This document shows positions 9,545 to 49,882 of a stretch of 57,992 nucleotides of DNA, piece after piece (positions within the stretch are counted from its first letter, which is position 1; each line of letters starts with the position of its first letter). The stretch lies in the IMG/VR virus record IMGVR_UViG_3300033141_003442; one strand, given 5' to 3'. Origin of the DNA: a virus. The notes below the pieces were generated by a model that worked only from the letters and a program-made list of their open reading frames with translations, had not been told where the DNA came from and ran no database searches. A program made the position numbers and the translations under genes.

Positions 9545-10815
9545 ACCCCTTTTTTACGGAAGGGGCTTTATCAGTGAGGAATAATCCTCCTGATTTAGGG
9601 CAGGCTTACAAACTGCCCAGCCCAAGAAGGAACTTTTGCCTTCAAGGGCAAAGATAGCAAGATTTTTGGAGGCATTGTAATCAGCATGGACTTGATAGCC
9701 ACAAGCCTTACAACAAAAAACAGAACCATTACGATTAGAAGATTGAATATGGCCACACTTACTACATCTTTGAGAACTGTATTTAGGGTCAACAAACCAA
9801 ACATCAATACCCTCTTCAAGTGCTTTGTATTGAATATAATTTGGGAGTTTAGAAAATGCCCAGAGAGAAACTTTATGTTTTTCAGCTTTTCTCCATTTTT
9901 TTACACTTCCTCTAATACTATTAAGATTTTCCATAGCAATTACTTGAGCACCAATCCTTTTTGCCTTCTCAACAATTTGCCGAGAAATATTATGCAAAAC
10001 CCAGTTAACAAAGCGGTTTTCTCGCCCACTCATTCTCTTAAGCAAGAGATGGGCAGAGCGAGTGCCTTTCTTTTGGATTTTGCTTCTCCGTTCGGCAAAC
10101 TGTCTTCTTTTATCATTAAGCATTCCTGCTTTAAAAAATTTGCCTATAGAGGTTACAGCAATATTCTTAACTCCCAAATCAACTCCCATAACAGTTTCAG
10201 GTTTTCTAACAAGAGCGGGTTTAATTATTGTAATATTAAGAAAGAAATCTTTGCCATTATAAGAAAGTGTAGCAGTCCTAAATTCATAATTTGTATTATC
10301 AAGTATTTTCTTTTGATAATCTCCAAGAAGATATTTGGCTTTTACTCTACCATTTACAGTAGAAAAAGTGCATTCTCTATTTTTAATAGTTACAGTTCTT
10401 TTATCAAGTTGAATTGCAGAAAAAGGCCTGAAGGTTGGTTTAGTTGCTTTTCTCTTTTTACTCCAATTGATAACACAAAGTTTAACCGCATCACAAGCTT
10501 TATTCCGAGCAGAACATATCAAATTAGCTTGAAGATTGGTTTGCTTTTTAAGTGGATAGTAAACAAGTTTATGGAGTTTAGATTTATTGATTATCTTCTT
10601 TTCAGGCTTCCATGCTTCATTTATGCAAAAATTAAGAGCAAAATTATATTGTCTAAAAGTTTCAAGAACATCTTGCTTTCTTTCTTGTGGAATATCCAGT
10701 TTTACTTTACAAGTCTTGATTATTTTTCTCATCGTGGTAAAATTATATCATGTTTATCTGAAATGTCAAGAAAGGAGTAAAAAGGCAATTCCTCCCCACC
10801 CTTACGGATGGGGTC
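9545..10815. mobile_element. Putative IS200/IS605-family (IS1341-like, tnpB-only) insertion bounded by similar subterminal hairpins
   Basis: Hairpin CCCCTTTTTTACGGAAGGGG at 9546-9565 and CCCCACCCTTACGGATGGGG at 10794-10813, same orientation, flanking tnpB; no tnpA present. Confidence 0.45.
9554..10732 (-). CDS. tnpB: TnpB-like RNA-guided endonuclease (IS200/IS605 OrfB family)
   Basis: 392 aa; RuvC-I (GVDLGVKNIAV), RuvC-II (IAMENLNS), zinc finger CSKCGH...CCKACG, RuvC-III (HADYNASKNLA). Confidence 0.85.
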   Translation of the reverse strand: MRKIIKTCKVKLDIPQERKQDVLETFRQYNFALNFCINEAWKPEKKIINKSKLHKLVYYPLKKQTNLQANLICSARNKACDAVKLCVINWSKKRKATKPTFRPFSAIQLDKRTVTIKNRECTFSTVNGRVKAKYLLGDYQKKILDNTNYEFRTATLSYNGKDFFLNITIIKPALVRKPETVMGVDLGVKNIAVTSIGKFFKAGMLNDKRRQFAERRSKIQKKGTRSAHLLLKRMSGRENRFVNWVLHNISRQIVEKAKRIGAQVIAMENLNSIRGSVKKWRKAEKHKVSLWAFSKLPNYIQYKALEEGIDVWFVDPKYSSQRCSKCGHIQSSNRNGSVFCCKACGYQVHADYNASKNLAIFALEGKSSFLGWAVCKPALNQEDYSSLIKPLP

Positions 10816-16505: not shown

Positions 16506-17075
16506 GTGCAAAAAACAGCTTTAGGAGAAAAAATTACACAACAAGACCATAATTTAAAAGTTAAGATTTATAAATATTTACTTTCTCTGCCTTTTGATGT
16601 TGTTCCTACTTCAGCAGAGATTGCAGAAAAGTTCCAGGTAGATGTTAAGGATGTTGAGAGGGTTCTTGGTTTATTATTGGAACGACTTTACGAATATAGA
16701 AGTAAGCATGTTAATAGAGTTCTGCTTATGCTTGAAAGCAAGTTACTTGAAAAAGCTATGGAAGGCAAACTTGGTGCTATTGAATTAGGATTAAAAATAT
16801 ATAATAAATTAAAAGAAACTTTAGAAATCAGACATAATATAAATGTTGATACTCCTTTATCTCAATACAATATAAATATTTTTACAGAGCAAGATAAGAA
16901 TTTAATAGATAGAATAAACAGAGCATTAAGTTCCATTCCTTCTCTATCTGATAAAGAGAAAGATAAAGGAGTAATTGATGCAGAAGTGGTTAAAGAAGAG
17001 GGGGGGAATATAAAATTTCCAGAGCGTCAATTTGTTAAAAATTTGATTAAGAAGGACAAAAAGAAAAAGAAATAA
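16506..17075 (+). CDS. Hypothetical protein (189 aa, GTG start), possible DNA-binding
   Basis: ORF track; convergent with terL; no ATG in frame upstream. Confidence 0.4.
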   Translation: MQKTALGEKITQQDHNLKVKIYKYLLSLPFDVVPTSAEIAEKFQVDVKDVERVLGLLLERLYEYRSKHVNRVLLMLESKLLEKAMEGKLGAIELGLKIYNKLKETLEIRHNINVDTPLSQYNINIFTEQDKNLIDRINRALSSIPSLSDKEKDKGVIDAEVVKEEGGNIKFPERQFVKNLIKKDKKKKK

Positions 17076-18764
17076 TTATTTACCTATCCAATGTCTTCTC
17101 TCTTTTTCTTGGTTTTGTAATTCTCTCCATCTATCTTTTCTTTTTTTAGCCATTTCACGGCGTTCAAAATAAGGGAATAAATATAAAATTATATATCCAA
17201 TACAATCCATGCCATGAGCTAAATATTCATCTCTTTCCCAAGTTAATTCATTAGTCTTTTTAGTTTTAAGATATTGGAAACATCTATGAATATAAGCACA
17301 ACTTTCTGTTGAAATAAAATTTTCTACAGGGTTATCAGGAATTTCATCATTTATCAAAAGCCCAGGTTTCCCATTATATTCATCAGTTAATTTATTTCTT
17401 ATTTGCACGGTCATCCGTTCTTTTCTGTTAGGAATAGGTATAACAGGAGATAAGCCAGCAGCTATTAAAGCTTCTACACTCATTCCTTTATCGGTTCTTT
17501 GTTGTCCTGCTTCATCTGCAAGATAAATAAATGATGCTGCTTTTCCAAACCATTGTTTTAATTTACTTTTTACATATTTAGCAAAGGGAAATATATCTAT
17601 TTGTTTACCAAGAATACATTTTAAAATAAGAAGACAATCATCATCATCTACTTGAGCACATACCACGCAGGGATGTAGAAAGCCATAATCTATGCCTACA
17701 TATACAGGTTTTTCTTTAATATATGTAAGCTGTCTTATATGCTTAAATTTATCATATTGGGGAAAATGTTTGCCTGATTGTGGAATATCAAAAGTTCCTA
17801 ATACATTTATAGCAAAGTCAATAGCTCCTCTTTGTTGTTTTTCTCTTTCCACATCCTTTTTAGACATCTCATCATCATATCTCCAATCAAACTCATAAAT
17901 ACTAGGTAACTTTAAATTTGGATTTGTCCTTAACGGTTGTCTTTTACTGAATAATTGATAGAAATAATAAGAAGTATAATCATTATCAGCAGGTATAAGT
18001 CTTTCTCTAGCAGGAGTTCCACAAGCTATTCTACATGATACTGTATCAGTTAATGTTGACCATGCTGCGGCGTCTGTATGATACCATAAAGTATATTCAT
18101 CTAAAAAGGCTGCTCTTGCTCTACCACCAGCTCCAAAATCTGCTGTATTTGCCTTTCCTCTAATAGATACTCCAGTTTCAGGATTGATTAAAAGGCGTGT
18201 CCTGTCATGTTCTCTCCATTTAAATCCTTTAGGTAATAACCAATCAGGTAGTGATTTCAATAAATATCTTACTTTTTCAAAAAGACTATCCATATCTCCT
18301 CTTCTATCTACTGTTTCTTCATTCACTGAACCAAGAAGAAAATCACTAGGAAAGAATGGATTAAGAAAAAAGAAAAGAAAAACTCCTGCTACTGTAAAAG
18401 TAAATCCGATACTTCTTTTTTTAAGAGCTATTAAATCGCCTCCATATAATATTCTTTCAACAATAGCTGGGACTAATATTTCTCTTTGATATTTCCATAA
18501 AATATATGGTCTATGAGGACTATTAGGATGTCTTACTGGACAATATATATAAAGAAAACAATCAAAGAAAAAGATTATATCTTTAAAAGTATATAATTTA
18601 ATATCCTGTCTGAATTTACTATCTTTCCTTGCTTTTTTGAGAAGTTCTCTTCTAAATTCTAAATTTGCCTTATATTCTATTGGATATTTTATCTTATTTT
18701 TAGGAAAAACAGCATTTAAATGTTCAATAGAGGGTGCAAACTCAGAGAATTTTTGGGATTTCAT
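17076..18764 (-). CDS. terL: Terminase large subunit
   Basis: 562 aa; ATPase motifs (LWKYQREIL, GGDLIALKKRSIGFT, Walker B-like AAFLDEYTLW); nuclease-domain acidic motifs (VGIDYG, LADEAG, HGMDCIGY). Confidence 0.75.
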   Translation of the reverse strand: MKSQKFSEFAPSIEHLNAVFPKNKIKYPIEYKANLEFRRELLKKARKDSKFRQDIKLYTFKDIIFFFDCFLYIYCPVRHPNSPHRPYILWKYQREILVPAIVERILYGGDLIALKKRSIGFTFTVAGVFLFFFLNPFFPSDFLLGSVNEETVDRRGDMDSLFEKVRYLLKSLPDWLLPKGFKWREHDRTRLLINPETGVSIRGKANTADFGAGGRARAAFLDEYTLWYHTDAAAWSTLTDTVSCRIACGTPARERLIPADNDYTSYYFYQLFSKRQPLRTNPNLKLPSIYEFDWRYDDEMSKKDVEREKQQRGAIDFAINVLGTFDIPQSGKHFPQYDKFKHIRQLTYIKEKPVYVGIDYGFLHPCVVCAQVDDDDCLLILKCILGKQIDIFPFAKYVKSKLKQWFGKAASFIYLADEAGQQRTDKGMSVEALIAAGLSPVIPIPNRKERMTVQIRNKLTDEYNGKPGLLINDEIPDNPVENFISTESCAYIHRCFQYLKTKKTNELTWERDEYLAHGMDCIGYIILYLFPYFERREMAKKRKDRWRELQNQEKERRHWIGK

Positions 18765-18811
18765 ATATATTTTTTATATTAAATCGTTCTTTTTGTCAAT
18801 TTACCATTGCC

Positions 18812-18840
18812 TTGACAAAATTATGATTATAATTTATCAT
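18812..18840 (+). promoter_or_regulatory. Sigma70-like promoter TTGACA-N17-TATCAT upstream of the portal gene
   Basis: TTGACA at 18812-18817, 17-nt spacer, TATCAT at 18835-18840; lies in the divergent terL/portal intergenic region. Confidence 0.4.
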
Positions 18841-18857
18841 ATCCATAATAAATTCTT

Positions 18858-20774
18858 ATGAGAAAAAAGAAAGAAATAGATGTTATTTTAGAACGATATG
18901 AAGAAACAAAGTCTGCCTATAAGGATTTTTGGAAAAAGGCTGAAGAAAGCTACGGCTTTGTTTATGGCAACAAATATCAATGGTATGTAGATGGAAGCGA
19001 CAAATACTATAAAGATTTAAAAGATGCAGAGCGCCCTACTTTATCTATAAATAGAATACAGGCCAAATTAAATCTCCTTGATGGTTATTTTCTTACTACC
19101 AGATATGATATTAAATTCCGTCCACAACAAAAGAAAGACCAAGAAATAGTTGATATAGCTAATCAATTATATAAATTAGTTTGGTATCAAATAAAAGGCG
19201 ATGCGATTGAAGGAGAAGTTTTTTATAATGGCATAATTTCAGGAGAGCATTATTTTTATATTTATCCTGATTATTCTAAAGATATTATTCGTGGTGATGT
19301 AGGTCTTTGTGCTTGTTCTCCATGGGAGATAATGTTTGACCCACGAGCAAAACGATATGATAAAACAGATGCTGAATATGTCTTTAGGTCTGTATGGCTT
19401 CCCATAGAAACAATTAAACGAAGATGGCCTCAAAAAGCCAGACAAATAGATAAATTAGTTAAAGTTTTAACTATTATCTCTACTGAAGGATTTGAAGCTC
19501 TTAAACAAAGCGTTCATATTACACATCCTTACGATAGATGGAGAGATGCTTTATCACGGCCTTATAATATTAAAGCAAATGAAGGAAGAATAGATGAGTA
19601 TTGGTATAAAACTTGGGAAAAAGTTGAAATTATTGTTGATGCTATTACAAAAAAAGTCATTGATGAAAGTGAAATAGACAAAGAAACCTTGGAAATTAGG
19701 AAAAAAGCTGGAGATATAGAAGTTTTAACCAGATATATTCCTAAAGTAAGAGTTAAATATTTGTTTGGAGATATAGAGCTTAGTGATGAACCTTCTCCTT
19801 GGACAAAAGGAGAATTAGCAAAGAATTTCCCTTTTGTTCCTTTTACAATATATAAAATATATTTACCTACAGAAAAGAAATATTTAATCTGGGGTGCTGT
19901 AGAAGTTCTTAAAGATGTTCAAAGAGAGATAAATAAAAGGCATAGTTATCTTGTAGAGGCTATGCTTAATGCTCCTTATAGTGTTTTAATATATGAAGAC
20001 CAAACTTTTACTCCTGAAAGTGAAGAAGCTTTAAGCAAAAAAGGTTTCCGCCCAGGTATGTCTTTAAAAACTTATCCAGGGAAAATAAATAGTTATAAAA
20101 TTGAAAACACTGTGCAATTCCCTGTAGGTTTATTGGAATTAGAAAATTTAGCTCTTAAAGACGCTGATATAGTTTCTCCTATTATTCCGCCTTCTGGTAA
20201 AGTTAAATCTGGTTCTGCAATGCTTCAAGAAGAAAGAATTATGCTTACAGATAAAGCAAGAATATTTAATAATTTCAAAGATACAAAAATACTTTTAGCT
20301 AGATATTTATTTAATGCTATTCAGCAAACTTATGATTATGAGAAAACTTTTAAGGCTGTTGACAGCGATGAAGAATATACTATAAATCAAGTAGTTTTTG
20401 CTACCAAAACAGAGCCTCATCCACTTACTGGTTCTCCTGTTGAAACTGTTGTTAGAGATAAATTTGGCAGGCCTGTAATAGAAAAAATAGTAAATGATAT
20501 TACAAATGAAGCTCTTGATTTTGATATTATTGCTACTGAAGTTAATGCTTCACCAAGTTATAGATTAGCAGTAGCCAATGATTTATTAAAAATAATTCAG
20601 ACAACGCCAAATCCGATTTTTATTAAAATGTTGTTTGAATATCTAGATTTACCTTCCCATATTAAAAAAGAATTAGAGCAACAAATGAATGCTCAAACGC
20701 AGCAAGCATTACAACAACAAAATTTGCCACAAAATATAAGACAGTTACAAACCCCATTCAAGCAAGGAGGATAA
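18858..20774 (+). CDS. Probable portal protein
   Basis: 638 aa, size and position next to terL; general resemblance to portal proteins; not verified by search. Confidence 0.5.
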   Translation: MRKKKEIDVILERYEETKSAYKDFWKKAEESYGFVYGNKYQWYVDGSDKYYKDLKDAERPTLSINRIQAKLNLLDGYFLTTRYDIKFRPQQKKDQEIVDIANQLYKLVWYQIKGDAIEGEVFYNGIISGEHYFYIYPDYSKDIIRGDVGLCACSPWEIMFDPRAKRYDKTDAEYVFRSVWLPIETIKRRWPQKARQIDKLVKVLTIISTEGFEALKQSVHITHPYDRWRDALSRPYNIKANEGRIDEYWYKTWEKVEIIVDAITKKVIDESEIDKETLEIRKKAGDIEVLTRYIPKVRVKYLFGDIELSDEPSPWTKGELAKNFPFVPFTIYKIYLPTEKKYLIWGAVEVLKDVQREINKRHSYLVEAMLNAPYSVLIYEDQTFTPESEEALSKKGFRPGMSLKTYPGKINSYKIENTVQFPVGLLELENLALKDADIVSPIIPPSGKVKSGSAMLQEERIMLTDKARIFNNFKDTKILLARYLFNAIQQTYDYEKTFKAVDSDEEYTINQVVFATKTEPHPLTGSPVETVVRDKFGRPVIEKIVNDITNEALDFDIIATEVNASPSYRLAVANDLLKIIQTTPNPIFIKMLFEYLDLPSHIKKELEQQMNAQTQQALQQQNLPQNIRQLQTPFKQGG

Positions 20775-20777
20775 GGC

Positions 20778-21752
20778 ATGGGTGAAGAAGAAACCAAAGA
20801 AACAATAGAAAACCCTGAGGAAACTTTATCTCCAGAAGGAACTGAAGAAACTACAAAGCCACAAGTATCTTCTGAAGAAACTGAAAAAGAACCTGAAACA
20901 CCGCCAGAGAAAAAAGATAAAGAATATAATTTTAAAGTTTTAAGAAATGAATTAGAAAAACAGAAGAAGTTAGTTGATTATTATGCTAATCTAGCAAAAC
21001 AAACACAAACTCAGCCAGTTCAACCACCTTATGATATTCCTAAGCAACCATTTCCACAGAATATTCCACAAACTCCTCTTATTCCTACACCAACAATGCC
21101 TACTTCTTTTAGTCCTGTGCCACCTAATGTTACTCCAACTTCGCCTACTTTATCTAAAGATATAACTGAGTTTAGCCCTGAAGAAGAAACACAAATAGCT
21201 GAAGCAGATGATCCTGCTGCTAAAGCAAAAGAAATTTTACAAAATAAAATTCGTGCTTATACTGATTATATTTATCAAGCACAAGCCCTACAGCAACCAC
21301 AAATCTCTCCAACAGATATTGCTCGTTTAATAGATGAAAAGGTAAATGAAAAATTAGAAATGGATAGAGTGCAAAGAGGATTAGAAGAAGTAAGCCAAAA
21401 CCCAGAATTTATTGAACTTGTTAAGAAACATGTAGAACCTACTAAAGATAGATTAGCATCTTTCTGGAATAGTTTTTATGTATTTGGAGAAAATGCAGGT
21501 AAGGTTTTGTATGAAGTTTTAAAGGCTTTAGATAAAAGTGAGCCAGAGGTAGCTAAGGAAGCTTTTAAAGCTGGGCAAAAACAAATTGTTGAAAAGTTAC
21601 AGCAAAGAGCAACAGCTCCAACTCCACCTATGGGTAGAGTATCTACAAAAACAGAATATACAGCAGAAGATTTAGAAAATATGTCTGTTGATGAGATAAT
21701 GAATGTTCCACCTGAAATAATAGAGAAATGGAGAAAAGGAGAATTGGATTAA
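20778..21752 (+). CDS. Hypothetical protein, acidic N-terminus and Pro/Gln-rich (scaffold-like?)
   Basis: 324 aa directly after the putative portal; low-complexity P/Q/T-rich region. Confidence 0.3.
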   Translation: MGEEETKETIENPEETLSPEGTEETTKPQVSSEETEKEPETPPEKKDKEYNFKVLRNELEKQKKLVDYYANLAKQTQTQPVQPPYDIPKQPFPQNIPQTPLIPTPTMPTSFSPVPPNVTPTSPTLSKDITEFSPEEETQIAEADDPAAKAKEILQNKIRAYTDYIYQAQALQQPQISPTDIARLIDEKVNEKLEMDRVQRGLEEVSQNPEFIELVKKHVEPTKDRLASFWNSFYVFGENAGKVLYEVLKALDKSEPEVAKEAFKAGQKQIVEKLQQRATAPTPPMGRVSTKTEYTAEDLENMSVDEIMNVPPEIIEKWRKGELD

Positions 21753-34045: not shown

Positions 34046-35173
34046 CTATATATCCTTTAAAATGCCTGAAATGACAGGTTTAATATAGCTATCGTATAAA
34101 CCGTCTCTTTCTTCTTCAGTAGTCGTCCAGACTTTTTCAGGTTTGGGATATTGAACGCCTGGCTTATCCTCCCACCGCCGTTGAGCAAGGAATGTGCTGG
34201 GATATATAATATATTCTAGTTCCATATTAGGCCATTCATACTTTATGTAATTATCTAAGCCTTCCATTATTTGGTTAAATAAAGCTTCATCAGGATTTAT
34301 TTTTAACCACTCTGCTAAAGCTCCTACTTTGTTTACTTTTCTGGGATAGTTTAGCCAAAACTTCTCAAATAGAATTCGTTGCTTTTTAATATTTTGTAGT
34401 AGTAAATTATCTGGTGGTTTATAGGGCGGAAAAGGTTGTTGTTTTTCTTTTCCACTGATGAATTCACTTTTCTTATTTGAATCTTTAGAGCTATATAGAT
34501 TATTATTTATATATTTTTTATTATTTTCTTTAAAAGAGTTATTTAAAGAAGATTTTATATCTGTAGTATTCTTTGTAGTATTCTTTGTATTTGTCCTAAC
34601 TTCAGGAGAAGGAGGTGGTAACTTTGAAGTAGGGGGGTGGTTACTTTGAAGTAAAGAGGTATTTACTTCGGAATTAGGAGGTGGTGATTCTGAAGTAGGA
34701 AGGTGGTTATCTTGAGGTAAAGAGGGGGTTTTTTTAGATTTGCGTTGGTCGTATGTAATTTTAAGGACATTGTCAATAATTGGTTCTATAAACATGACAT
34801 TTGAAAGTTTTAAACCTTCGTTAGTTTCTATTGTTTTAAATTCTCTTTTAACAAGTTTTAATCTTATCAAATCATCAAAAGCTCTTTTAACCTGTATTTT
34901 TGTGAAACCAAATAAATCCACATAAGACTGGTAATTCTTTTGTAATCTATCAGCTTTAAACTTTTGTCTATAACCAATTACTTCGCCTGTTTCTGGATTT
35001 CTTTCTTCAACTGGCCTATACCAAAAAACAATGTCCGCCAATAATGTTATAGCTACATGATTCACTGTTCCGTTTTGAGTTTTTATATATCTATACCAAC
35101 TTAAGGGGACAGTATTACCAGAAAATTCAACGCCAATTAGTTTTTTACATTGTTCATTTATTTCATTTCTCAT
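34046..35173 (-). CDS. Putative replication initiator / replisome organiser (DnaD-like C-terminal region) with internal low-complexity linker
   Basis: 375 aa; N- and C-terminal globular parts separated by a P/S/T-rich linker encoded by iteron-like DNA repeats; C-terminal F..FW..YP...A.WLK pattern. Confidence 0.45.
   Translation of the reverse strand: MRNEINEQCKKLIGVEFSGNTVPLSWYRYIKTQNGTVNHVAITLLADIVFWYRPVEERNPETGEVIGYRQKFKADRLQKNYQSYVDLFGFTKIQVKRAFDDLIRLKLVKREFKTIETNEGLKLSNVMFIEPIIDNVLKITYDQRKSKKTPSLPQDNHLPTSESPPPNSEVNTSLLQSNHPPTSKLPPPSPEVRTNTKNTTKNTTDIKSSLNNSFKENNKKYINNNLYSSKDSNKKSEFISGKEKQQPFPPYKPPDNLLLQNIKKQRILFEKFWLNYPRKVNKVGALAEWLKINPDEALFNQIMEGLDNYIKYEWPNMELEYIIYPSTFLAQRRWEDKPGVQYPKPEKVWTTTEEERDGLYDSYIKPVISGILKDI
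34611..34722. repeat. Five imperfect roughly 22-bp direct repeats (iteron-like) inside the replication gene; adjacent 12-bp tandem repeat at 34564-34587
   Basis: ggaggtggtaactttgaagtagg / ggggtggttactttgaagtaaag / aggtatttacttcggaattagg / aggtggtgattctgaagtagg / aaggtggttatcttgaggtaaag. Confidence 0.6.
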
Positions 35174-36012: not shown

Positions 36013-37260
36013 TTAAAATAATTCTTCTAATTCTTTTGCTTTGGTGTCAATCATCAAGTAGATTTCTGTAGCTTCCGCCTCATCCGAAATATCATAAATA
36101 CTATTATAACCCTTTTCTTTCAAAACCTCATTCACTAGTTCACGGTCATAATTTGACAATTGCTCTTCTAATTCCACAAGCCATTGTGCGGGAGGTTGAG
36201 CTTTCTTTTCTGGTTTAGCCTTTTTAGGTTTTGGAGGAGAAGTAGCAGGCTTATTCTTTGCTTCCCATTCCTTAAATTTTTCTACAAACCTATCTATTTT
36301 CTTTGTAGCTTTTTCTTTTACATATTCCATCGAGCAATTAACACTCTTTGCTACTGTTTCAATGTATTCTTCTACTCTTTCTTTATCTAATTTTTTTTTA
36401 GCAATCACATCATCAAAAAATATTATTCGTTCAGGTTCAGGAGCTTGGTCTTCAATTTGTTTGGGTTTGTCGTCCTTTTTTTCTTTTCCAGCCTCCATAT
36501 CCTTTATATCAATCACTTTACCTTGGAAAGTTACTTCTTCCTTTTTAGGTTCTTCTTCAATTGTAGACAATACAATGTCCTCTTCTTCCTCAGAAATTGC
36601 TATATCTAATTCAGGTGTTTTGCGTTTCATTTTAAGCATTTTCAAAACTGCACTCTTTCTCATCATAGCTTCAGGCCATAAATGCCAAGGACTATCTTTA
36701 GTTCCAGCTTGTTCAGCCTTTCTCCATGAAAGAGACATTTTTCTTCTTTTTTCAATTTCTTCCATTCTGATTATATCGAAATCCACTCTATCATCCTTTT
36801 TCCAAAGAGCGTAAGCACAAACAGCTTTCCCTCTGTCTTTTAATGCAATTTTATGGTGCAAATAAGCATCAGTGCCCAATTGATAATTAAACTCATCATT
36901 CTCATAAACTACATGGGCTTCCACTTCAGCATCTGTTACTCTGTTTACCAACTCAATAAGACCTTGATAACCAATTTGGGCATTGCATTCTATTGGATGT
37001 CCTTGTTTTCTATTATTACGCCTAGGTATCAAATAAACATTATCTCCGCCTGGTAGTAATCCCCACTCTGCACATTTCAATAATGCACTGAGCAAACTTT
37101 CAGGAGTGCATTGTTGCAATTGAGGGTTTTTGAAAAGAGCGTTCCAAAAGGCTGCAATCAGGACATCTTTCTTCATTCCTTTAGGTAGCACTTTTAACTT
37201 CTCACTTGTTTCAGGAGAAACTAATTTGGCCTTGATTTCTGCTAGTTGATTTTTTTTCAT
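36013..37260 (-). CDS. recT: RecT-family single-strand annealing recombinase
   Basis: N-terminal region (TPESLLSALLKCAEWGLLPGGDNVYLIPRRN) fits the RecT family; acidic/basic C-terminal tail. Confidence 0.65.
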   Translation of the reverse strand: MKKNQLAEIKAKLVSPETSEKLKVLPKGMKKDVLIAAFWNALFKNPQLQQCTPESLLSALLKCAEWGLLPGGDNVYLIPRRNNRKQGHPIECNAQIGYQGLIELVNRVTDAEVEAHVVYENDEFNYQLGTDAYLHHKIALKDRGKAVCAYALWKKDDRVDFDIIRMEEIEKRRKMSLSWRKAEQAGTKDSPWHLWPEAMMRKSAVLKMLKMKRKTPELDIAISEEEEDIVLSTIEEEPKKEEVTFQGKVIDIKDMEAGKEKKDDKPKQIEDQAPEPERIIFFDDVIAKKKLDKERVEEYIETVAKSVNCSMEYVKEKATKKIDRFVEKFKEWEAKNKPATSPPKPKKAKPEKKAQPPAQWLVELEEQLSNYDRELVNEVLKEKGYNSIYDISDEAEATEIYLMIDTKAKELEELF

Positions 37261-37667: not shown

Positions 37668-38342
37668 TCAAATCCTCCTTGTTGCTATTTCTACTTCTTG
37701 ATATATTTCAAGGCCATCAATATTTCTTACTCCTGCCCTAATAGCTGCATTAACTTTTTTGTTATCTACCATTAAATATTCTTTTGGTATTTTGTCAAAG
37801 TCCACTATTTTAAATGTCCAATATTTTCTTTCATATACAGTGCCATTGTCCGTGCTTACTTTTAATTTTTCTTTAGGCATAGCAATTTCAGGTAGCTTGA
37901 CTGGTTCAATACCTTTTTCTTTAGCTTCCTTATCCAGTTGCTCTTGTAATTTTTTCCTTTCTTCTTCAGCTTTCTTTTCCATTTCTCTGCGTTCCATTTC
38001 AAGACGAGTTTTGTAATTTTTTAACTTCAATTTTACTATTTTCTTTGAATTAGAAAGAGGTTTAACTACTTCATTAACCCTAGCTTTCACCTTTTTTATA
38101 AATGTTTTAGGGACAATTATTCTTTTCTCACACTCTTCATTAATTCGTTTTTCGTATTTTGCTATTGTAGCCAATAGCTCAGCAGCCTTTTGGCAATTTT
38201 CTTCATTTGTTATTTCTAGCATCTTTACTTCTTTTTCTAACTGAGTAAATCTTTTCTTCCAAACCAAAAAGGCATTTTGTGCCTCTATTAAAGCTAAATT
38301 AGCCTTGAATTCCGTAAATACTCCATTACTTTTCTCCATCAT
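37668..38342 (-). CDS. Coiled-coil protein associated with the recombination module
   Basis: 224 aa, heptad-like K/E-rich sequence, adjacent to recT. Confidence 0.45.
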   Translation of the reverse strand: MMEKSNGVFTEFKANLALIEAQNAFLVWKKRFTQLEKEVKMLEITNEENCQKAAELLATIAKYEKRINEECEKRIIVPKTFIKKVKARVNEVVKPLSNSKKIVKLKLKNYKTRLEMERREMEKKAEEERKKLQEQLDKEAKEKGIEPVKLPEIAMPKEKLKVSTDNGTVYERKYWTFKIVDFDKIPKEYLMVDNKKVNAAIRAGVRNIDGLEIYQEVEIATRRI

Positions 38343-38689
38343 TTATCTCCTTTTAATAAATTTGGATTTTCCCATACATTTCCTATTACTTCTAAATCAT
38401 ACCAATTTATTATCTCGCTTGATAAATCCATATAACTGCTGGTTATGGGATTTTTTAAATAAAAAGAACCGTTCCCAAAGCTAACTATCCATTTATCATA
38501 AAAAGAAGATATAATATCTTCTTCATAAATTTCTTTGCCGTTTATATCGGTCAATCCAGTAAATAGCATAAGAATAACATTTTTATAAAAACAACCTTCT
38601 ATACTTATTTCTTGATGTTTTAACCATATAGCATCAGGGTATAACATTTTTCTATTCTTTTTATCCCAAGCCCTAACTTTAATCTGCAT
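38339..38689 (-). CDS. YopX-family protein
   Basis: N-terminus MQIKVRAWDKKNRKMLYPD and C-terminus EVIGNVWENPNLL match the YopX pattern. Confidence 0.65.
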   Translation of the reverse strand: MQIKVRAWDKKNRKMLYPDAIWLKHQEISIEGCFYKNVILMLFTGLTDINGKEIYEEDIISSFYDKWIVSFGNGSFYLKNPITSSYMDLSSEIINWYDLEVIGNVWENPNLLKGDK

Positions 38690-45172: not shown

Positions 45173-45235
45173 ACCATTCCTAGTCTAAAATAATTCCTAA
45201 TTTAGAACCATTCTAAACTAACACTCATTCTAAAT
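45173..45235. promoter_or_regulatory. Cluster of four ATTC(C)TAA(A/T) half-sites (operator-like) in the early control region
   Basis: aaccattcctag, aattcctaattt, gaaccattctaaac, ctcattctaaat; same half-site forms a perfect palindrome at 46142-46160. Confidence 0.45.
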
Positions 45236-45420: not shown

Positions 45421-45936
45421 ATGAAGCAAGGATATAAAGTAAAAAAGGAAGAAATTAGAGAAATTGTAAGACTTTATGTTAAAGAGCATTTGTCTTGTGG
45501 GAAGATTGCCAAAAAGATAGGAAAGATTAGCAGACAACAAGTATGGAATGTATTGAAAAGTTATGGAGTAAATACAACTAAAAAAGATAATGCAGAAGTT
45601 GAGGTTAGATGTGAGTATTGTGGCCAAGTTTTTAAACGGAAACGCTATATTTATTTGAAAAGTCATAAACATTTCTGTTCTTTATCATGTTACCACAAAT
45701 ATTTAAAATTGTCTTCTTATTTTGAGTGGAGACAAGGCCAAAGGATTGCTAGAAAAGTAATTCAATCACACTTTCCTGAAATTGATAGTTTATATCCTAA
45801 TTGGGTAGCCCATCACATTGACGGTGATTGCACTAACAATCATATTTCTAATCTTATGGCTTTTAAATGCCAAGGAGACCATATTAAATGGCATCGTTCC
45901 AAAAATAAACCTAAGCCAATTTGGCCAAAGCAATAG
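45421..45936 (+). CDS. HNH endonuclease with N-terminal HTH and Zn-finger
   Basis: HTH-like SCGKIAKKIGKISRQQVWNVL; CEYCGQ...CSLSC; HNH motif WVAHHIDGDCTNNHISNLMAFKCQGDHIKWH. Confidence 0.7.
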   Translation: MKQGYKVKKEEIREIVRLYVKEHLSCGKIAKKIGKISRQQVWNVLKSYGVNTTKKDNAEVEVRCEYCGQVFKRKRYIYLKSHKHFCSLSCYHKYLKLSSYFEWRQGQRIARKVIQSHFPEIDSLYPNWVAHHIDGDCTNNHISNLMAFKCQGDHIKWHRSKNKPKPIWPKQ

Positions 45937-46059
45937 CCTGCCTTTTTAATTCCTGTCAAACTGTGCCCATGTGCCCTATTTTACTTTGCTTTTCACAACC
46001 AGAGCATTGCCCTTATGCGTTCTAGTTTACTTTGTTGCTTGATTGCTTGGCTGTTTTTT

Positions 46060-46125
46060 TAGGCAGATGGGGGGGTAGGAAAAGGCAGGGGTGAGGGGCG
46101 TTATGAGGGGGTTATATTCCCACCT
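46060..46125. other. G-rich tract cluster followed by a C-rich partially complementary segment (potential G-quadruplex or strong hairpin)
   Basis: gatgggggggtaggaaaaggcaggggtgaggggcgttatgagggggttat then tcccacctcactctccacgcc; stands out in an AT-rich genome. Confidence 0.4.
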
Positions 46126-46141
46126 CACTCTCCACGCCATG

Positions 46142-46160
46142 ATTTAGAATAATTCTAAAT
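46142..46160. promoter_or_regulatory. Perfect 19-bp palindrome ATTTAGAAT-A-ATTCTAAAT immediately upstream of the late-operon -35
   Basis: Read directly; followed by taagaatggttc and TTGACA at 46173-46178. Confidence 0.55.
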
Positions 46161-46172
46161 TAAGAATGGTTC

Positions 46173-46201
46173 TTGACAAACAGTTACAAATGTGTTATAG
46201 G
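46173..46201 (+). promoter_or_regulatory. Candidate late promoter TTGACA-N17-TATAGG (TG at -15/-14) upstream of the capsid gene
   Basis: TTGACA 46173-46178, 17-nt spacer, TATAGG 46196-46201; capsid gene follows with a strong SD. Confidence 0.4.
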
Positions 46202-46347
46202 ATATATATCTGGCAGTATAGGAGTTCGCCACTCCGTTCTTTTATTTCTTAGTTTTCCTATTATTGGCTGTAGTAGGTTTCGCCAGCCTAAAGATAAATG
46301 GGTTTACGTGTAAACGTATAATAAATTTATATAGGAGGTAAAGAAAG

Positions 46348-47352
46348 ATGGCAGATTGGAAACCTGGGAGTTCAATGTATGCAAAGAGGTATGCCACATC
46401 TACCTTTATTGAATATAAGACTGGTATTTGGTGGGACAAGCATGGATATGTGGGGAAGGATGAGAACAATGTAATACAGTTAATAGAGGATTTCACGAGG
46501 GAACCTGGTAATAGTATGAGGTTTTATTTGACTATGGTGCCTGAAGGAGACCCGATTGTTGATGATGATACCTTAGAAGGCAACGAGATGAATATTACCA
46601 ATTACTATCAGGACGTAACGCTTCATGAGTATCGTGGTGGTATTCGTCTTTATGGTAATATGGAAGAGAAGGCGGTTGCCTTTAATATGAGGGAGACAGC
46701 GAGGAGAGTATTAGGAATTTGGAAGAGGCAGGAAACGGGTGATGCTATATTTAGTGCATTAGCCAGTTCTCCGACCAAGGTTATATATGGTGGGGATGCT
46801 ACTTCTACTTCTACTTTAGAGTCTAGTGATTTATGCAATCTTAAGCTTTTATTGCATGCTGCTACTTATGCGGAAAGTGTAGCTGACCCTCGTATTCCTC
46901 CGTTAATAATAGATGGTGAGGAGAAGTATATAGTTATTTTGCACAAGCATTGTTTATCTGATATGCAGTTATATGATAGTGATTTTCGTGCATTAGGGCA
47001 GAGTGTATATCAGAGAAATAGTGATAATCCTTTGATTAAGAGGGCTGCTTTTGTTTACAATAATCTTATTGTTTATTCTACTGATAAGATACCCACTGCT
47101 GATAATTGGGGTTCTGGCGGTGATGTTCATGGAGCTACCAATTTATTGCTTGGTGCTCAAGCAGCTCTTTTAGGTAGGGGCAAGACCAAAGGTGGAGTTA
47201 TTCCTCAATTTGATTGGAGAGAGCAGACTTGGGATTATGGGCATAAATATGGTATTGCTGTTGGTGAAACCAGAGCATTAGCCAAGACTGTTTTTAATTC
47301 CAAGGACTTTTCTACTGTAGCTATTAGGACTGCTGCTAATAGTTATGCTTAA
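46348..47352 (+). CDS. Probable major capsid protein
   Basis: 334 aa; very strong SD (TATAGGAGGTAAAGAAAG-ATG); first gene after the late promoter; size typical of capsid proteins; not verified by search. Confidence 0.45.
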   Translation: MADWKPGSSMYAKRYATSTFIEYKTGIWWDKHGYVGKDENNVIQLIEDFTREPGNSMRFYLTMVPEGDPIVDDDTLEGNEMNITNYYQDVTLHEYRGGIRLYGNMEEKAVAFNMRETARRVLGIWKRQETGDAIFSALASSPTKVIYGGDATSTSTLESSDLCNLKLLLHAATYAESVADPRIPPLIIDGEEKYIVILHKHCLSDMQLYDSDFRALGQSVYQRNSDNPLIKRAAFVYNNLIVYSTDKIPTADNWGSGGDVHGATNLLLGAQAALLGRGKTKGGVIPQFDWREQTWDYGHKYGIAVGETRALAKTVFNSKDFSTVAIRTAANSYA

Positions 47353-49237: not shown

Positions 49238-49882
49238 TTGTCTCAAGTATCTACTATAATTCAATATATTGGGGATGAATTAGGGCAGGGTATAACAATA
49301 ACTTCTACTTCAAGACCTTCTACCGCAGAGATTATAAGGCGGATAAATAGAACAACCAAAACTTTTGCTAAAATTCTTGCTCAATACCAGAGTGATTTAT
49401 CTAGAGAAGAAGGCACTATAACAACTATTGCTGGCACGGCAGAATATGCTGATTTAGCAAGTGAAATGTTAACTCCAGATGACACAGCTTATTATATAGA
49501 TGGAGATAGTAAAGTTCCTATTTATAAAAAAAATTACCAAGAAATTCTTTATTTACCAACTGATTCTGCTGCACCTTATTACTTTTATGTAACTAAAAAC
49601 AATCATATAGGATTTTATCCTACTCCAGATGATACTTATACAATAAAAGTGCCGTATTGGCATATTGGAAAAGAAGTTTCAAGTGAGAATGATGATATGC
49701 CATTTAAAGGAATGTTAGATGATATTTATGTGGAAGCTATTGTAAGACGGCTTTTGAATAGAGATGAATTTAATGTTGATTTTGAAAGTAAATGGTTACA
49801 GTTTGTAACTATGAATATATTAAGCACACTTAACTTAAGGAGAGAAAATTTAACACAATTAGGGAAGAATGACTACTTATGA
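49238..49882 (+). CDS. Hypothetical structural protein (214 aa, TTG start)
   Basis: ORF with SD GGAGAAG before TTG. Confidence 0.45.
   Translation: MSQVSTIIQYIGDELGQGITITSTSRPSTAEIIRRINRTTKTFAKILAQYQSDLSREEGTITTIAGTAEYADLASEMLTPDDTAYYIDGDSKVPIYKKNYQEILYLPTDSAAPYYFYVTKNNHIGFYPTPDDTYTIKVPYWHIGKEVSSENDDMPFKGMLDDIYVEAIVRRLLNRDEFNVDFESKWLQFVTMNILSTLNLRRENLTQLGKNDYL

What the first reader, a model, noticed from the sequence alone, without database searches (positions are those of the whole stretch)
46060..46125. G-tract cluster in an AT-rich genome upstream of the capsid operon
Four to five G runs (GGGGGGG, GGGG, GGGG, GGGGG) within about 50 nt are followed by a C-rich, partly complementary segment (cccacctcactctcc). 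This could form a G-quadruplex or a stable hairpin. It lies between the HNH endonuclease gene and the late promoter, a location where packaging (cos/pac) signals or transcription terminators are sometimes found.
Basis: seen in the sequence. Interest (0 to 1): 0.45.

Follow-up and report, generated by a model that had tools for sequence, protein, structure and literature searches.

The report
Conserved G-rich boundary element, function unproven
A unique 71-base stretch that could fold into a four-stranded G-quadruplex sits where this uncultivated virus's early and structural gene blocks diverge and survives every rearrangement seen around it, but its function could not be established here.

Summary
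Window 46069-46111 carries G7, G4, G4 and G5 runs, followed by an AT spacer (46112-46118) and a C/T-rich arm (46119-46139). It is the most G-dense 60-mer in the genome (31/60; 0 of 1000 simulated genomes reach this). It is the only region with a G4Hunter score of 2 or more.

The 71-bp element is present in all nine related haplotypes recovered. This holds even though its left flank exists in three unrelated versions and its right flank in three. All breakpoints lie within a few bases of its edges.

- **Not an intrinsic terminator:** there is no T-tail.
- **Not a supported hairpin:** only the window's copy folds better than shuffles, and none of 17 pairs shows compensatory change.
- **Not a known RNA or conserved ORF.**
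- **Not the likely origin:** 22-nt iterons lie at 34599-34747.

Its distance to the capsid promoter varies from about 17 nt to about 0.8 kb, and the leftward promoter beside it is truncated in the window. So it probably acts as DNA, independently of both promoters.

My best guess (confidence 0.3) is a G-quadruplex-prone boundary and recombination joint. The main rival (0.2) is a packaging or terminus site, which I could not test. The adjacent HNH gene is a mobile insertion, not a packaging partner. Interest is moderate.

The parts
46069..46111 (+). G-run cluster (G7, GG, GG, G4, G4, G5), 83% purine. It includes the nearly invariant core AGGAAAAGGCAGGGGTGA at 46077-46094. This is the candidate G-quadruplex strand.
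   Evidence: Sequence. Only G3+x4 motif in the window and maximal G density. G4Hunter 2.07. Nine-haplotype alignment A5.
46112..46118 (.). AT spacer TTATATT, the loop or centre of the imperfect dyad. It reads TTATAT(T) in all haplotypes.
46119..46139 (+). C/T-rich arm CCCACCTCACTCTCCACGCC, partly complementary to the G-runs. Position 46127 carries all four bases among the haplotypes. The right edge ...CTCTCCACGC is the breakpoint of an insertion and lies next to a deletion.
45955..46068 (-). Diverged remnant of the relatives' leftward promoter region. It has a -35 TTGACA (reverse complement of 45955-45960) and an AAAATAGGGC upstream motif also found at the main early promoter. The window differs from the relatives' consensus at roughly half of the aligned columns between 45980 and 46079 (48 of 104). 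The 25-30 nt next to the G-run are unalignable.
   Evidence: Alignments. Divergence bins. Repeats D3/D4.
45421..45936 (+). HNH-type endonuclease gene of 171 aa with an N-terminal HTH-like and zinc-finger-like part. It is a mobile insertion, present only in the window, L155, L154, L156 and L157, with two different junctions.
46143..46159 (.). Operator-like palindrome TTTAGAATAATTCTAAA. The only other copy in the window is at 45201-45217. It is deleted in L021/L022.
46173..46201 (+). Rightward (capsid) promoter-like site: TTGACA, 14 nt, TG-T-TATAGG. Its -10 is non-canonical and it was not called by the consensus scan.
   Evidence: Sequence. Near-invariant in relatives. Absent from the list.
46152..46179 (-). 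Leftward promoter-like site TTGTCA-16-TAGAAT, back to back with the rightward one. It would transcribe the C-rich strand of the element. Its -10 is deleted in L021/L022, and in L025/L148 it is separated from the element.
46211..46285 (+). 5' leader of the capsid gene. It has a duplicated 21-nt motif TGGC..TTCGCCA and a terminator-like hairpin GGAGTTCGCCACTCC followed by a T-tract (46221-46244). This is a possible attenuator.
   Evidence: Repeat D6. Terminator scan. Conserved in relatives.
46348..47352 (+). Major capsid protein gene (N4-gp56 / Phage_capsid_3 family), the first gene of the rightward block in the window.

Best explanation
The element at 46069-46139 is a single-copy, strand-asymmetric DNA element. 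It has four G-runs on the + strand, an AT spacer, then a C/T-rich arm. It lies in the gap where the leftward (early) and rightward (structural) gene blocks diverge.

I think it most likely works as DNA, not RNA. When the duplex is unwound, the G-rich strand can fold into an intramolecular G-quadruplex. Unwinding could come from the negative supercoiling that builds up between divergently transcribed units, or from replication. This would make the site a structural boundary and a fragile joint at which neighbouring modules are swapped, inserted or deleted.

**Shown:** the composition, uniqueness and G4 propensity; presence in nine haplotypes; rearrangement breakpoints at both edges; variable distance to the flanking promoters; and the absence of terminator, RNA-family, ORF and iteron features.

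**Inferred:** that a quadruplex really forms, that it causes the breakpoints, and that the boundary role is selected for.
For: 1. **G4 propensity.** G density and G4Hunter score are extreme for this 33% GC genome.
2. **Kept in all haplotypes.** G4Hunter stays at 1.96-2.2 in all nine, and eight of nine keep four G3+ tracts.
3. **Retained through rearrangement.** The 71 bp survive although the left flank has three unrelated versions (window; C-rich in L155; the rest). The right flank also has three: operator plus capsid promoter; a 17-nt deletion; and a 0.6-0.8 kb insert carrying one or two extra genes.
4. **Sharp divergence boundary.** blastn homology between the window and its relatives restarts exactly at 46069. 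The window differs from the relatives' consensus at roughly half of the aligned columns in 45980-46079 (48 of 104). It differs at only 4 of 50 columns in 46080-46129.
5. **Independence from the rightward promoter.** Distance from the element to the capsid promoter is 34 nt in the window, about 17 nt in L021, and about 0.6-0.8 kb in L148/L025.
6. **Independence from the leftward promoter.** In the window and L155 that promoter has lost its -10 to the HNH insertion, yet the element is intact.
7. **No predicted transcript.** No conserved promoter is predicted to transcribe the G-rich strand, and no terminator, Rfam family or tRNA matches.
Against: - No experiment or read data shows that a quadruplex forms. 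The loops are long (12, 3 and 8 nt), and L025 has lost the third G3 tract.
- Loop positions are about as conserved as G positions (7 of 23 against 3 of 20 variable; my own count). This is not the pattern expected if only G4 formation were selected. The invariant core AGGAAAAGGCAGGGGTGA looks more like a protein-recognition sequence.
- All haplotypes are close relatives (capsid 97-98% identical). The 90% identity of the element is no higher than its coding neighbours, and among the relatives it varies about twice as much as its left flank.
- Breakpoints at the edges are equally expected if the element is simply a protected functional site of another kind.
Confidence: 0.3

Rival explanations
1. 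It is a packaging or terminus site: the sequence recognised or cut by terminase (a cos, pac or terminal-repeat boundary) at the start of the structural gene block. The G/C-rich dyad around TTATATT would serve as the cleavage or annealing region.
For: - It is single-copy, and at 61% GC it is a GC-rich island in a 33% GC genome.
- The window has an imperfect dyad, GAGGGGG-TTATATT-CCCACCTC.
- It always lies at the left edge of the rightward block, whichever gene comes first.
- Its function appears independent of both promoters.
- The sharp change in divergence at 46069 fits end-initiated recombination in a genome that encodes RecT and a PD-(D/E)XK nuclease.
- From general knowledge, cohesive-end sites such as those of lambda and P2 are G/C-rich.
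Against: - The large terminase gene is 29 kb away on the other strand, and no small terminase was found.
- The weak nearest terminase relatives (28% identity) are 9NA-like phages, which I recall as headful packagers.
- The HNH gene is of the homing type and is absent from six of the nine haplotypes (seven of twelve loci that include this flank), so it is not a packaging partner.
- None of the contigs that reach this region ends within 50 nt of the element, and the circular assembly reads straight through it.
- The dyad is not kept in the relatives.
Confidence: 0.2
2. It is a binding site for a phage or host DNA-binding protein. It would be part of the switch region between the early and late promoters, alongside the two TTTAGAA-N3-TTCTAAA operator-like palindromes.
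For: - The 18-nt core AGGAAAAGGCAGGGGTGA has only two single-base variants in nine haplotypes, including at non-G positions.
- Related motifs recur: GGGGT(G)AGG twice on the + strand and GTGAGGTGGG on the - strand (and reading).
- It lies in a dense control region with operator-like palindromes and back-to-back promoter-like sites.
Against: - Its distance to the capsid promoter is not fixed, ranging from about 17 nt to about 0.8 kb.
- The neighbouring leftward promoter is truncated in the window.
- No regulator gene could be tied to it, and the first early genes have no informative family matches.
- The motif occurs nowhere else in the genome.
Confidence: 0.15
3. It has no selected function. 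It would be a relic or hitch-hiking piece of G-rich DNA that persists because all sampled genomes are recent relatives, with nearby breakpoints caused by chance or by homopolymer slippage.
For: - All haplotypes come from one tight clade. The next capsid relatives are only 36% identical and lack this intergenic region altogether.
- Among the relatives the element is more variable than its left flank, at 8 of 50 against 8 of 100 columns.
- G-run length varies from 6 to 8.
- The loose G4 pattern appears by chance in 23% of simulated genomes.
Against: - At least four independent rearrangements spare the 71 bp, with breakpoints within about 3 nt of its edges.
- No simulated genome reaches its G density.
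Confidence: 0.15
4. It is an RNA element: the 5' leader of a leftward transcript from the TTGTCA-16-TAGAAT site (46179 to 46152). The C-rich, G-poor sequence would act as a Rho-loading or attenuator region. Alternatively, it is a short G-rich + strand RNA.
For: - The leftward promoter-like site scores 10 of 12.
- The - strand RNA from 46111 leftward is strongly C-rich and G-poor.
- All one-sided changes in the putative stem are G-U compatible on the + strand.
Against: - The -10 of that promoter is deleted in L021/L022, and in L025/L148/L154 the promoter is 0.6-0.8 kb away.
- In the window the transcript would run antisense into the HNH gene.
- There is no covariation, folds are no better than shuffles, and there is no Rfam match.
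- The 38-codon - strand ORF is not conserved: its ATG becomes ATA and the G-run indels shift the frame.
Confidence: 0.1
5. It is an intrinsic transcription terminator for the HNH gene, or else the replication origin.
For: - The window's hairpin has a DNA free energy of -5.7 kcal/mol (z -3.0) and lies 170 nt downstream of the HNH stop codon.
- The element lies at the minimum of cumulative GC skew.
Against: - No T-run follows the stem, and the scan finds no terminator there.
- The element exists in genomes without the HNH gene.
- Six or seven 22-nt iterons inside the replication-initiator gene at 34599-34747 mark a lambda-like origin.
- The GC-skew minimum simply follows the switch in gene orientation.
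Confidence: 0.05

Closest known systems
Canonical intramolecular G-quadruplex motifs in promoter-proximal or intergenic DNA (G3+ N1-7/12 x4; G4Hunter class). Examples recalled from general knowledge: the Neisseria pilE-linked G4 that initiates pilin recombination, and supercoil-responsive promoter G4s such as the one upstream of c-MYC.
   Same: - Four G3+ runs on one strand.
- G4Hunter above 2.
- Location in an untranscribed gap beside promoters.
- Association with recombination and rearrangement breakpoints.
   Different: - The loops are long (12 and 8 nt).
- Formation is untested.
- No associated small RNA or recombination cassette system is evident.
- Loop sequence is as conserved as the G-runs.
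Cohesive-end (cos) sites of tailed phages. These include the HNH-assisted cos systems of HK97 and of the staphylococcal phages phi12 and phiSLT
   Same: - A G/C-rich, partly symmetric, single-copy site in an intergenic region at the start of the structural genes.
- An HNH gene immediately upstream in the window.
   Different: - No terminase genes are adjacent.
- The HNH protein has the homing-type build (HNH_3-like with HTH and zinc finger) and is absent from most relatives.
- No ends have been mapped.
- The symmetry is not conserved.
Intrinsic (Rho-independent) terminators.
   Same: A G/C-rich stem with a short AT loop in the window.
   Different: - There is no U-tract.
- The stem is not conserved beyond what the composition gives.
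- In the relatives no upstream gene reads into it.
Mobile promoter/stem-loop cassettes that mark module junctions in T4-type phages (PeSLs; general knowledge).
   Same: It sits exactly at junctions where accessory genes and homing endonuclease genes come and go.
   Different: It is single-copy in the genome, so it cannot mediate recombination between repeated copies. It contains no promoter.

Membership tests
Putative G-quadruplex sequence (PQS) | Four or more runs of at least 3 G on one strand, separated by short loops | tested here: met
   The runs are G7-N12-G4-N3-G4-N8-G5 at 46069-46111. This matches with loops of 12 nt or less but not with loops of 7 nt or less. Eight of nine haplotypes keep the motif; L025 does not.
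Putative G-quadruplex sequence (PQS) | High G4Hunter score (above 1.5-2) | tested here: met
   The score is 2.07 over 43 nt, with a maximum of 2.16 in 25-nt windows. The nine haplotypes score 1.96-2.2. 14 of 1000 simulated genomes reach 2.16.
Putative G-quadruplex sequence (PQS) | Cation-dependent folding into a quadruplex | not testable with these tools
   This needs circular dichroism, DMS footprinting or polymerase-stop assays.
Intrinsic terminator | G/C-rich stem-loop immediately followed by a T/U-run | tested here: not met
   The stem at 46105-46126 is followed by ACTCTCCACGCC. The scan finds no terminator at the element. It does find one at 46221-46244.
Conserved RNA or DNA hairpin | Folding energy better than shuffled controls, and compensatory changes in relatives | tested here: not met
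   The 111-nt RNA gives z -0.45 and -0.34. The 33-nt DNA core gives z -3.0 in the window but -0.63, -0.59 and -0.04 in relatives. None of 17 pairs changes on both sides, and the shuffle control shows no difference.
cos / pac / terminal-repeat boundary | Virion DNA ends or packaging-series start at the site | not testable with these tools
   No reads were available. None of the contigs that reach this region ends within 50 nt of the element.
cos / pac / terminal-repeat boundary | Adjacent terminase genes (usual, not obligatory) | tested here: not met
   The large terminase is at 17076-18764 on the - strand. No small terminase was detected.
HNH-assisted cos system | Packaging-type HNH gene conserved next to the site | tested here: not met
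   The HNH ORF is present in three of the nine haplotypes (five of twelve loci that include this flank), with two different junctions. It carries an HTH, a zinc finger and a weak HNH_3 match, which is homing-type architecture.
Iteron-type replication origin | Tandem direct repeats bound by the initiator, usually with an AT-rich stretch | tested here: not met
   There are no direct repeats in the element. Six or seven 22-nt iterons lie inside the initiator gene at 34599-34747.
Known RNA family / tRNA-derived attachment site | Match to an Rfam model or a tRNA gene | tested here: not met
   There are no gathering-score hits in the window. The only hits in the region are chance-level, at E 2.4 and 3.7. 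No tRNA or tmRNA was found.
Small protein-coding gene | ORF with a conserved start and frame in relatives | tested here: not met
   The window has a 38-codon - strand ORF starting at 46140. Its ATG reads ATA in most relatives, and G-run lengths of 6 to 8 plus 1-nt indels shift the frame.

The most novel reading that the evidence does not exclude
The element is a functional G-quadruplex that acts as a programmed fragile site or recombination initiator at the early/late junction. It would drive exchange of accessory genes and homing endonucleases, or double as the signal for genome-end formation. The virus carrying it has an unresolved host, possibly outside well-studied groups: the contig is deposited in a Heimdallarchaeaceae bin, while a close relative is in an Omnitrophica bin.
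Probability: 0.1. Interest if true: 0.65.

Novelty: new member of a known kind. Interest (0 to 1): 0.35.

Why it matters
If the quadruplex forms and causes the breakpoints at its edges, this would be a natural viral example of a non-B DNA structure organising modular genome exchange at a fixed joint. If it proves to be the packaging signal, it would define the genome ends of a poorly known podovirus-like lineage from hydrothermal sediments whose structural module is oddly split. Either way it gives a precise 71-bp target for simple biophysical and read-mapping tests. If neither holds, it is just an unusual but ordinary intergenic sequence.

Tried and rejected
1. **Nucleotide search against 50,697 phage records** (near and distant modes): no match.
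2. **Scan of bacterial and archaeal genomes for the 17-mer GGAAAAGGCAGGGGTGA:** 120 or more hits. None extends beyond 20 nt, which is consistent with my own estimate of about 70 chance matches, so it was uninformative. The pattern was too short and the scan was wasted.
3. **Deeper conservation through capsid synteny:** the next relatives (36% identity or less) have the usual terminase-portal-scaffold-capsid order with no intergenic gap before the capsid gene, so no homologous region exists.
4. **RNA structure:** RNAalifold on both strands gave covariation terms of about zero. A small - strand hairpin left of the G-run in the relatives has some G-U-compatible changes, but it is absent from the window and from L155.
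5. **Small ORF on the - strand:** rejected, because neither the start codon nor the frame is conserved.
6. **Origin of replication:** rejected in favour of the iterons at 34.6 kb.
7. **Attachment site:** there is no tRNA, and no integrase was found among the ORFs scanned.
8. **Terminase typing:** no Pfam or PDB match, and only 28% identity to 9NA-like terminases.
9. **Sample identifiers in the literature:** no paper found. Two other literature searches gave nothing directly useful.
10. **Host domain:** unresolved. The closest RecT relatives come from Geobacillus phages and from a Methanosarcina virus.

Full report
**1. What is there**

The window is a circularly assembled viral genome of about 57.9 kb and 33% GC. 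It has a 114-nt terminal overlap that falls inside a coding region.

Genes from 44889 down to 21749 lie on the - strand. These are the early and replication functions, and they include:
- a RecT-like protein at 36013-37260;
- a replication initiator at 34046-35173;
- YopX at 38339-38689.

Genes from 46348 onward lie on the + strand and continue through the end of the window round to 21752. These are the structural functions, and they include:
- an N4-gp56-type capsid at 46348-47352;
- an SU10-type adaptor at 49238-49882;
- the portal at 18858-20774.

The finding lies in the control region where the two blocks diverge.

Read directly, the + strand has G7 at 46069-46075, G4 at 46088-46091, G4 at 46095-46098 and G5 at 46107-46111. 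TTATATT follows at 46112-46118, then the C/T-rich arm CCCACCTCACTCTCCACGCC at 46119-46138.

**2. Is it more than chance?**

Yes for density, no for the bare motif.
- The region holds the most G-rich 60-mers of the window: 31 G, against a mean of 10.05 and an sd of 4.2.
- It is the only G3+x4 (loops of 12 nt or less) match on either strand.
- G4Hunter is 2.07 over the 43 nt. It is the only region at or above 2.0.
- In first-order Markov simulations of the genome, 0 of 1000 reach 31 G or C per 60 nt, and 14 of 1000 reach G4Hunter 2.16.
- However, 117 of 500 simulated genomes contain some match to the loose pattern.

**3. Structure tests**

- As RNA, the 111-nt region folds no better than dinucleotide shuffles on either strand (z -0.45 and -0.34).
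- The 33-nt core GAGGGGG-TTATATT-CCCACCTC is a respectable DNA hairpin in the window (-5.7 kcal/mol, z -3.0).
- The corresponding sequences of three relatives give z -0.63, -0.59 and -0.04.
- On the nine-haplotype alignment, 89.5% of cells can pair in the window's structure. But none of 17 pairs changes on both sides, and the shuffle control is indistinguishable.
- No T-run follows the stem, and the terminator scan reports nothing at the element. It does report a hairpin plus T-tract at 46221-46244, in the capsid leader.
- No Rfam family or tRNA matches.

**4. Relatives**

Nothing similar exists at the DNA level in the phage collection. The capsid protein is only 25-28% identical to those of Bcep22-like, Ralstonia and cyanobacterial podoviruses. 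In the large protein database there is one tight cluster at 97-98% identity, followed by a drop to 36%.

The 36%-and-below relatives have the usual terminase-portal-scaffold-capsid order, with no gap before the capsid gene. The intergenic region is therefore specific to the tight clade.

From that clade I recovered loci from JGI, IMG/VR, ENA, NCBI and Logan. They give nine distinct haplotypes of the element (alignment A5):
G6-8 [T/C]A[G/A]GAAAAG[G/A]CAGGGGTGA[G/A]GG[G/A]N GTT[A/G][T/C]G[A/G/-]GGGGG(T)TTATAT[T/C]C[C/T]C[A/C]C[C/T]TCNCTC[T/A]CCACGC.

G4Hunter stays at 1.96-2.2 in all nine. Only L025 loses the third G3 tract.

**5. The flanks change while the element stays**

Left flank:
- In six of the nine haplotypes the left flank is a leftward promoter (TTGACA-17-TGgTAGAAT) serving four small ORFs.
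- In the window and in L155 an HNH gene replaces these ORFs right up to the -35 box.
- In L154 the HNH gene sits further left.
- The 25-30 nt abutting the G-run exist in three unrelated versions: the window's, a C-rich one in L155, and the one shared by the rest.
- blastn homology between the window and its relatives restarts exactly at 46069.
- The window differs from the relatives' consensus at roughly half of the aligned columns between 45980 and 46079 (48 of 104). It differs at only 4 of 50 columns in 46080-46129.

Right flank. After ...CTCTCCACGC there is one of three arrangements:
- the palindrome TTTAGAATAATTCTAAA followed by the capsid promoter;
- a 17-nt deletion that removes the palindrome (L021, L022);
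- a 0.6-0.8 kb insert with one or two extra genes and their own promoter (L025, L018, L148, L150, L154).

The distance from the element to the capsid promoter therefore ranges from about 17 nt to about 0.8 kb. In the window the adjacent leftward promoter has lost its -10.

I conclude that the element does not act through a fixed spatial relation to either promoter.

**6. What it is not**

- **Not the origin of replication.** Six or seven 22-nt iterons lie inside the initiator gene at 34599-34747.
- **Not an attachment site.** There is no tRNA, and no integrase was found among the ORFs scanned.
- **Not a gene.** The window's 38-codon - strand ORF starting at 46140 has ATA in place of ATG in most relatives, and the G-run varies from 6 to 8.
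- **Not shared with cellular genomes.** A 17-mer scan gave only chance-length matches.

**7. The HNH gene**

The gene at 45421-45936 matches HNH PHROG families at about 1e-7. It matches Pfam HNH_3 below the cutoff, and it has HTH-like and zinc-finger-like parts. It is present in three of the nine haplotypes (five of the twelve loci that include this flank), with two kinds of junction. It has no Shine-Dalgarno sequence, and a TATAAT box lies 6 nt before its ATG.

This is the profile of a free-standing homing endonuclease, not of the small packaging-associated HNH proteins. Its position next to the element is therefore not evidence for a cos site.

**8. Packaging**

- The large terminase (17076-18764, - strand) is 29 kb away. 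It is only 28% identical, over its ATPase half, to the terminases of 9NA-like phages. It has no Pfam or PDB match.
- No small terminase was found.
- None of the contigs that reach this region ends within 50 nt of the element.

None of this excludes a terminus. Replicating or concatemeric DNA assembles straight through such sites, and the element does sit at the classical position, at the start of the structural block. The sharp change in divergence at 46069 would also fit end-initiated recombination in a genome that encodes RecT and a PD-(D/E)XK nuclease. Without reads this cannot be settled.

**9. Interpretation**

The facts that need explaining are these:
- extreme G-richness on one strand;
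- a single copy in the genome;
- retention through at least four independent flank rearrangements, with breakpoints within about 3 nt of the edges;
- independence from the neighbouring promoters;
- no sign of an RNA or a protein product.

I rank the explanations as follows.

| Rank | Explanation | Confidence |
|---|---|---|
| a | G-quadruplex-prone DNA boundary and fragile joint | 0.30 |
| b | Packaging or terminus site | 0.20 |
| c | Protein operator belonging to the early/late switch | 0.15 |
| d | No selected function | 0.15 |
| e | Leader or Rho-loading region of a leftward RNA from the TTGTCA-16-TAGAAT site at 46179 to 46152 | 0.10 |
| f | Terminator or origin | 0.05 |

Three points weigh against (a):
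- Loop positions are conserved about as well as G positions (7 of 23 against 3 of 20 variable; my own count).
- The loops are long.
- Among close relatives the element varies about twice as much as its left flank.

**10. Comparison with known systems and verdict**

The sequence meets the sequence-level definition of a putative quadruplex. It fails the definitions of an intrinsic terminator, a conserved hairpin, an iteron origin, a known RNA and an HNH-assisted cos system. The defining test for a cos, pac or terminal-repeat site (mapped DNA ends) could not be run.

I file it as a new member of a known kind: a G4-prone intergenic element. Its function is unproven and its interest is moderate.

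Noticed in passing
whole window; proteins at 9554-10732, 46348-47352, 45421-45936: The exact 57,992-nt contig is deposited at NCBI inside a 'Candidatus Heimdallarchaeaceae archaeon' MAG. A member of the same 90%-identity capsid cluster is deposited in a 'Candidatus Omnitrophica bacterium 4484_70.2' MAG. The host, and even its domain, is unresolved. Promoter-like sites look sigma-70-type, for example TTGACA followed by TATAAT at canonical spacing before the TnpB gene. Gene content (RecT, O/DnaD-like initiator with iterons, YopX) looks bacterial. However, the nearest TnpB relatives are mostly archaeal, and one RecT hit is from a Methanosarcina virus.
   Followed up: partly
window 9554-10732 (-): There is a TnpB / IS605 OrfB-type RNA-guided nuclease gene (PF07282 E 4e-22, PF01385) inside the structural gene block. 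It has its own promoter-like site and a G/C-rich hairpin (CCCCATCCGTAAGGGTGGGG) just upstream. Homologues of 65-86% identity are found in Bathyarchaeota, Thermococcus, WS2 and Omnitrophota bins.
   Followed up: partly
window 34599-34747: Six or seven copies of a 22-nt iteron (consensus about GGTGGTTACTTTGAAGTA...) lie inside the replication-initiator gene 34046-35173. This resembles a lambda-type origin within the O gene.
   Followed up: yes
window 17076-21752 versus 46348 onward: The structural module is split and partly inverted. The large terminase lies alone on the - strand. Portal and a 324-aa ORF lie at 18858-21752. The 23-kb early block separates them from the capsid gene. More distant relatives keep terminase-portal-scaffold-capsid contiguous.
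   Followed up: partly
window 46211-46285: The capsid 5' leader carries a duplicated 21-nt motif (TGGCAGTATAGGAGTTCGCCA / TGGCTGTAGTAGGTTTCGCCA). The first copy overlaps a terminator-like hairpin GGAGTTCGCCACTCC followed by GTTCTTTTAT. Mutually exclusive pairings suggest an attenuator or antitermination control of late genes. The region is conserved in relatives.
   Followed up: no
window 46143-46159 and 45201-45217: The palindrome TTTAGAA-N3-TTCTAAA occurs exactly twice in the genome, about 940 bp apart, flanking the HNH gene and the G-rich element. One copy abuts the capsid promoter and is missing in L021/L022. These are likely operators of an unidentified repressor.
   Followed up: partly
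window 45421-45936; L154, L155, L156, L157: The HNH gene appears to be leaderless: a TATAAT box lies 6 nt before the ATG and there is no Shine-Dalgarno sequence. It occurs at two different junctions in the clade, which is typical of a free-standing homing endonuclease. The TnpB and terminase genes also have -10-like boxes about 9 nt before their ATG.
   Followed up: partly
window 2097-8324 (+): A 2075-aa ORF in the structural block has no Pfam match and only one marginal PHROG hit. It could be an ejection or internal virion protein, or something else.
   Followed up: no
L147 1680-1715 and 2160-2200: A distant relative (capsid 30% identical; NCBI GCA_040960625.1) has G-clusters in the long, mostly non-coding gap between its replication and packaging modules. 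One of them, GGGGGGAGGGTGGGGGGTATGTTCCC, resembles GAGGGGGTTATATTCCC of the window. This could be a parallel or a coincidence.
   Followed up: no
window 17000-17006: A second G7 run lies inside ORF 16506-17075, 70 nt from the stop codon of the convergent terminase gene. G4Hunter there is 1.44.
   Followed up: no
L012 / L013 1864-3546: Relatives with 34% capsid identity carry a diversity-generating retroelement (an Avd-like protein plus a reverse transcriptase) upstream of their capsid gene.
   Followed up: no
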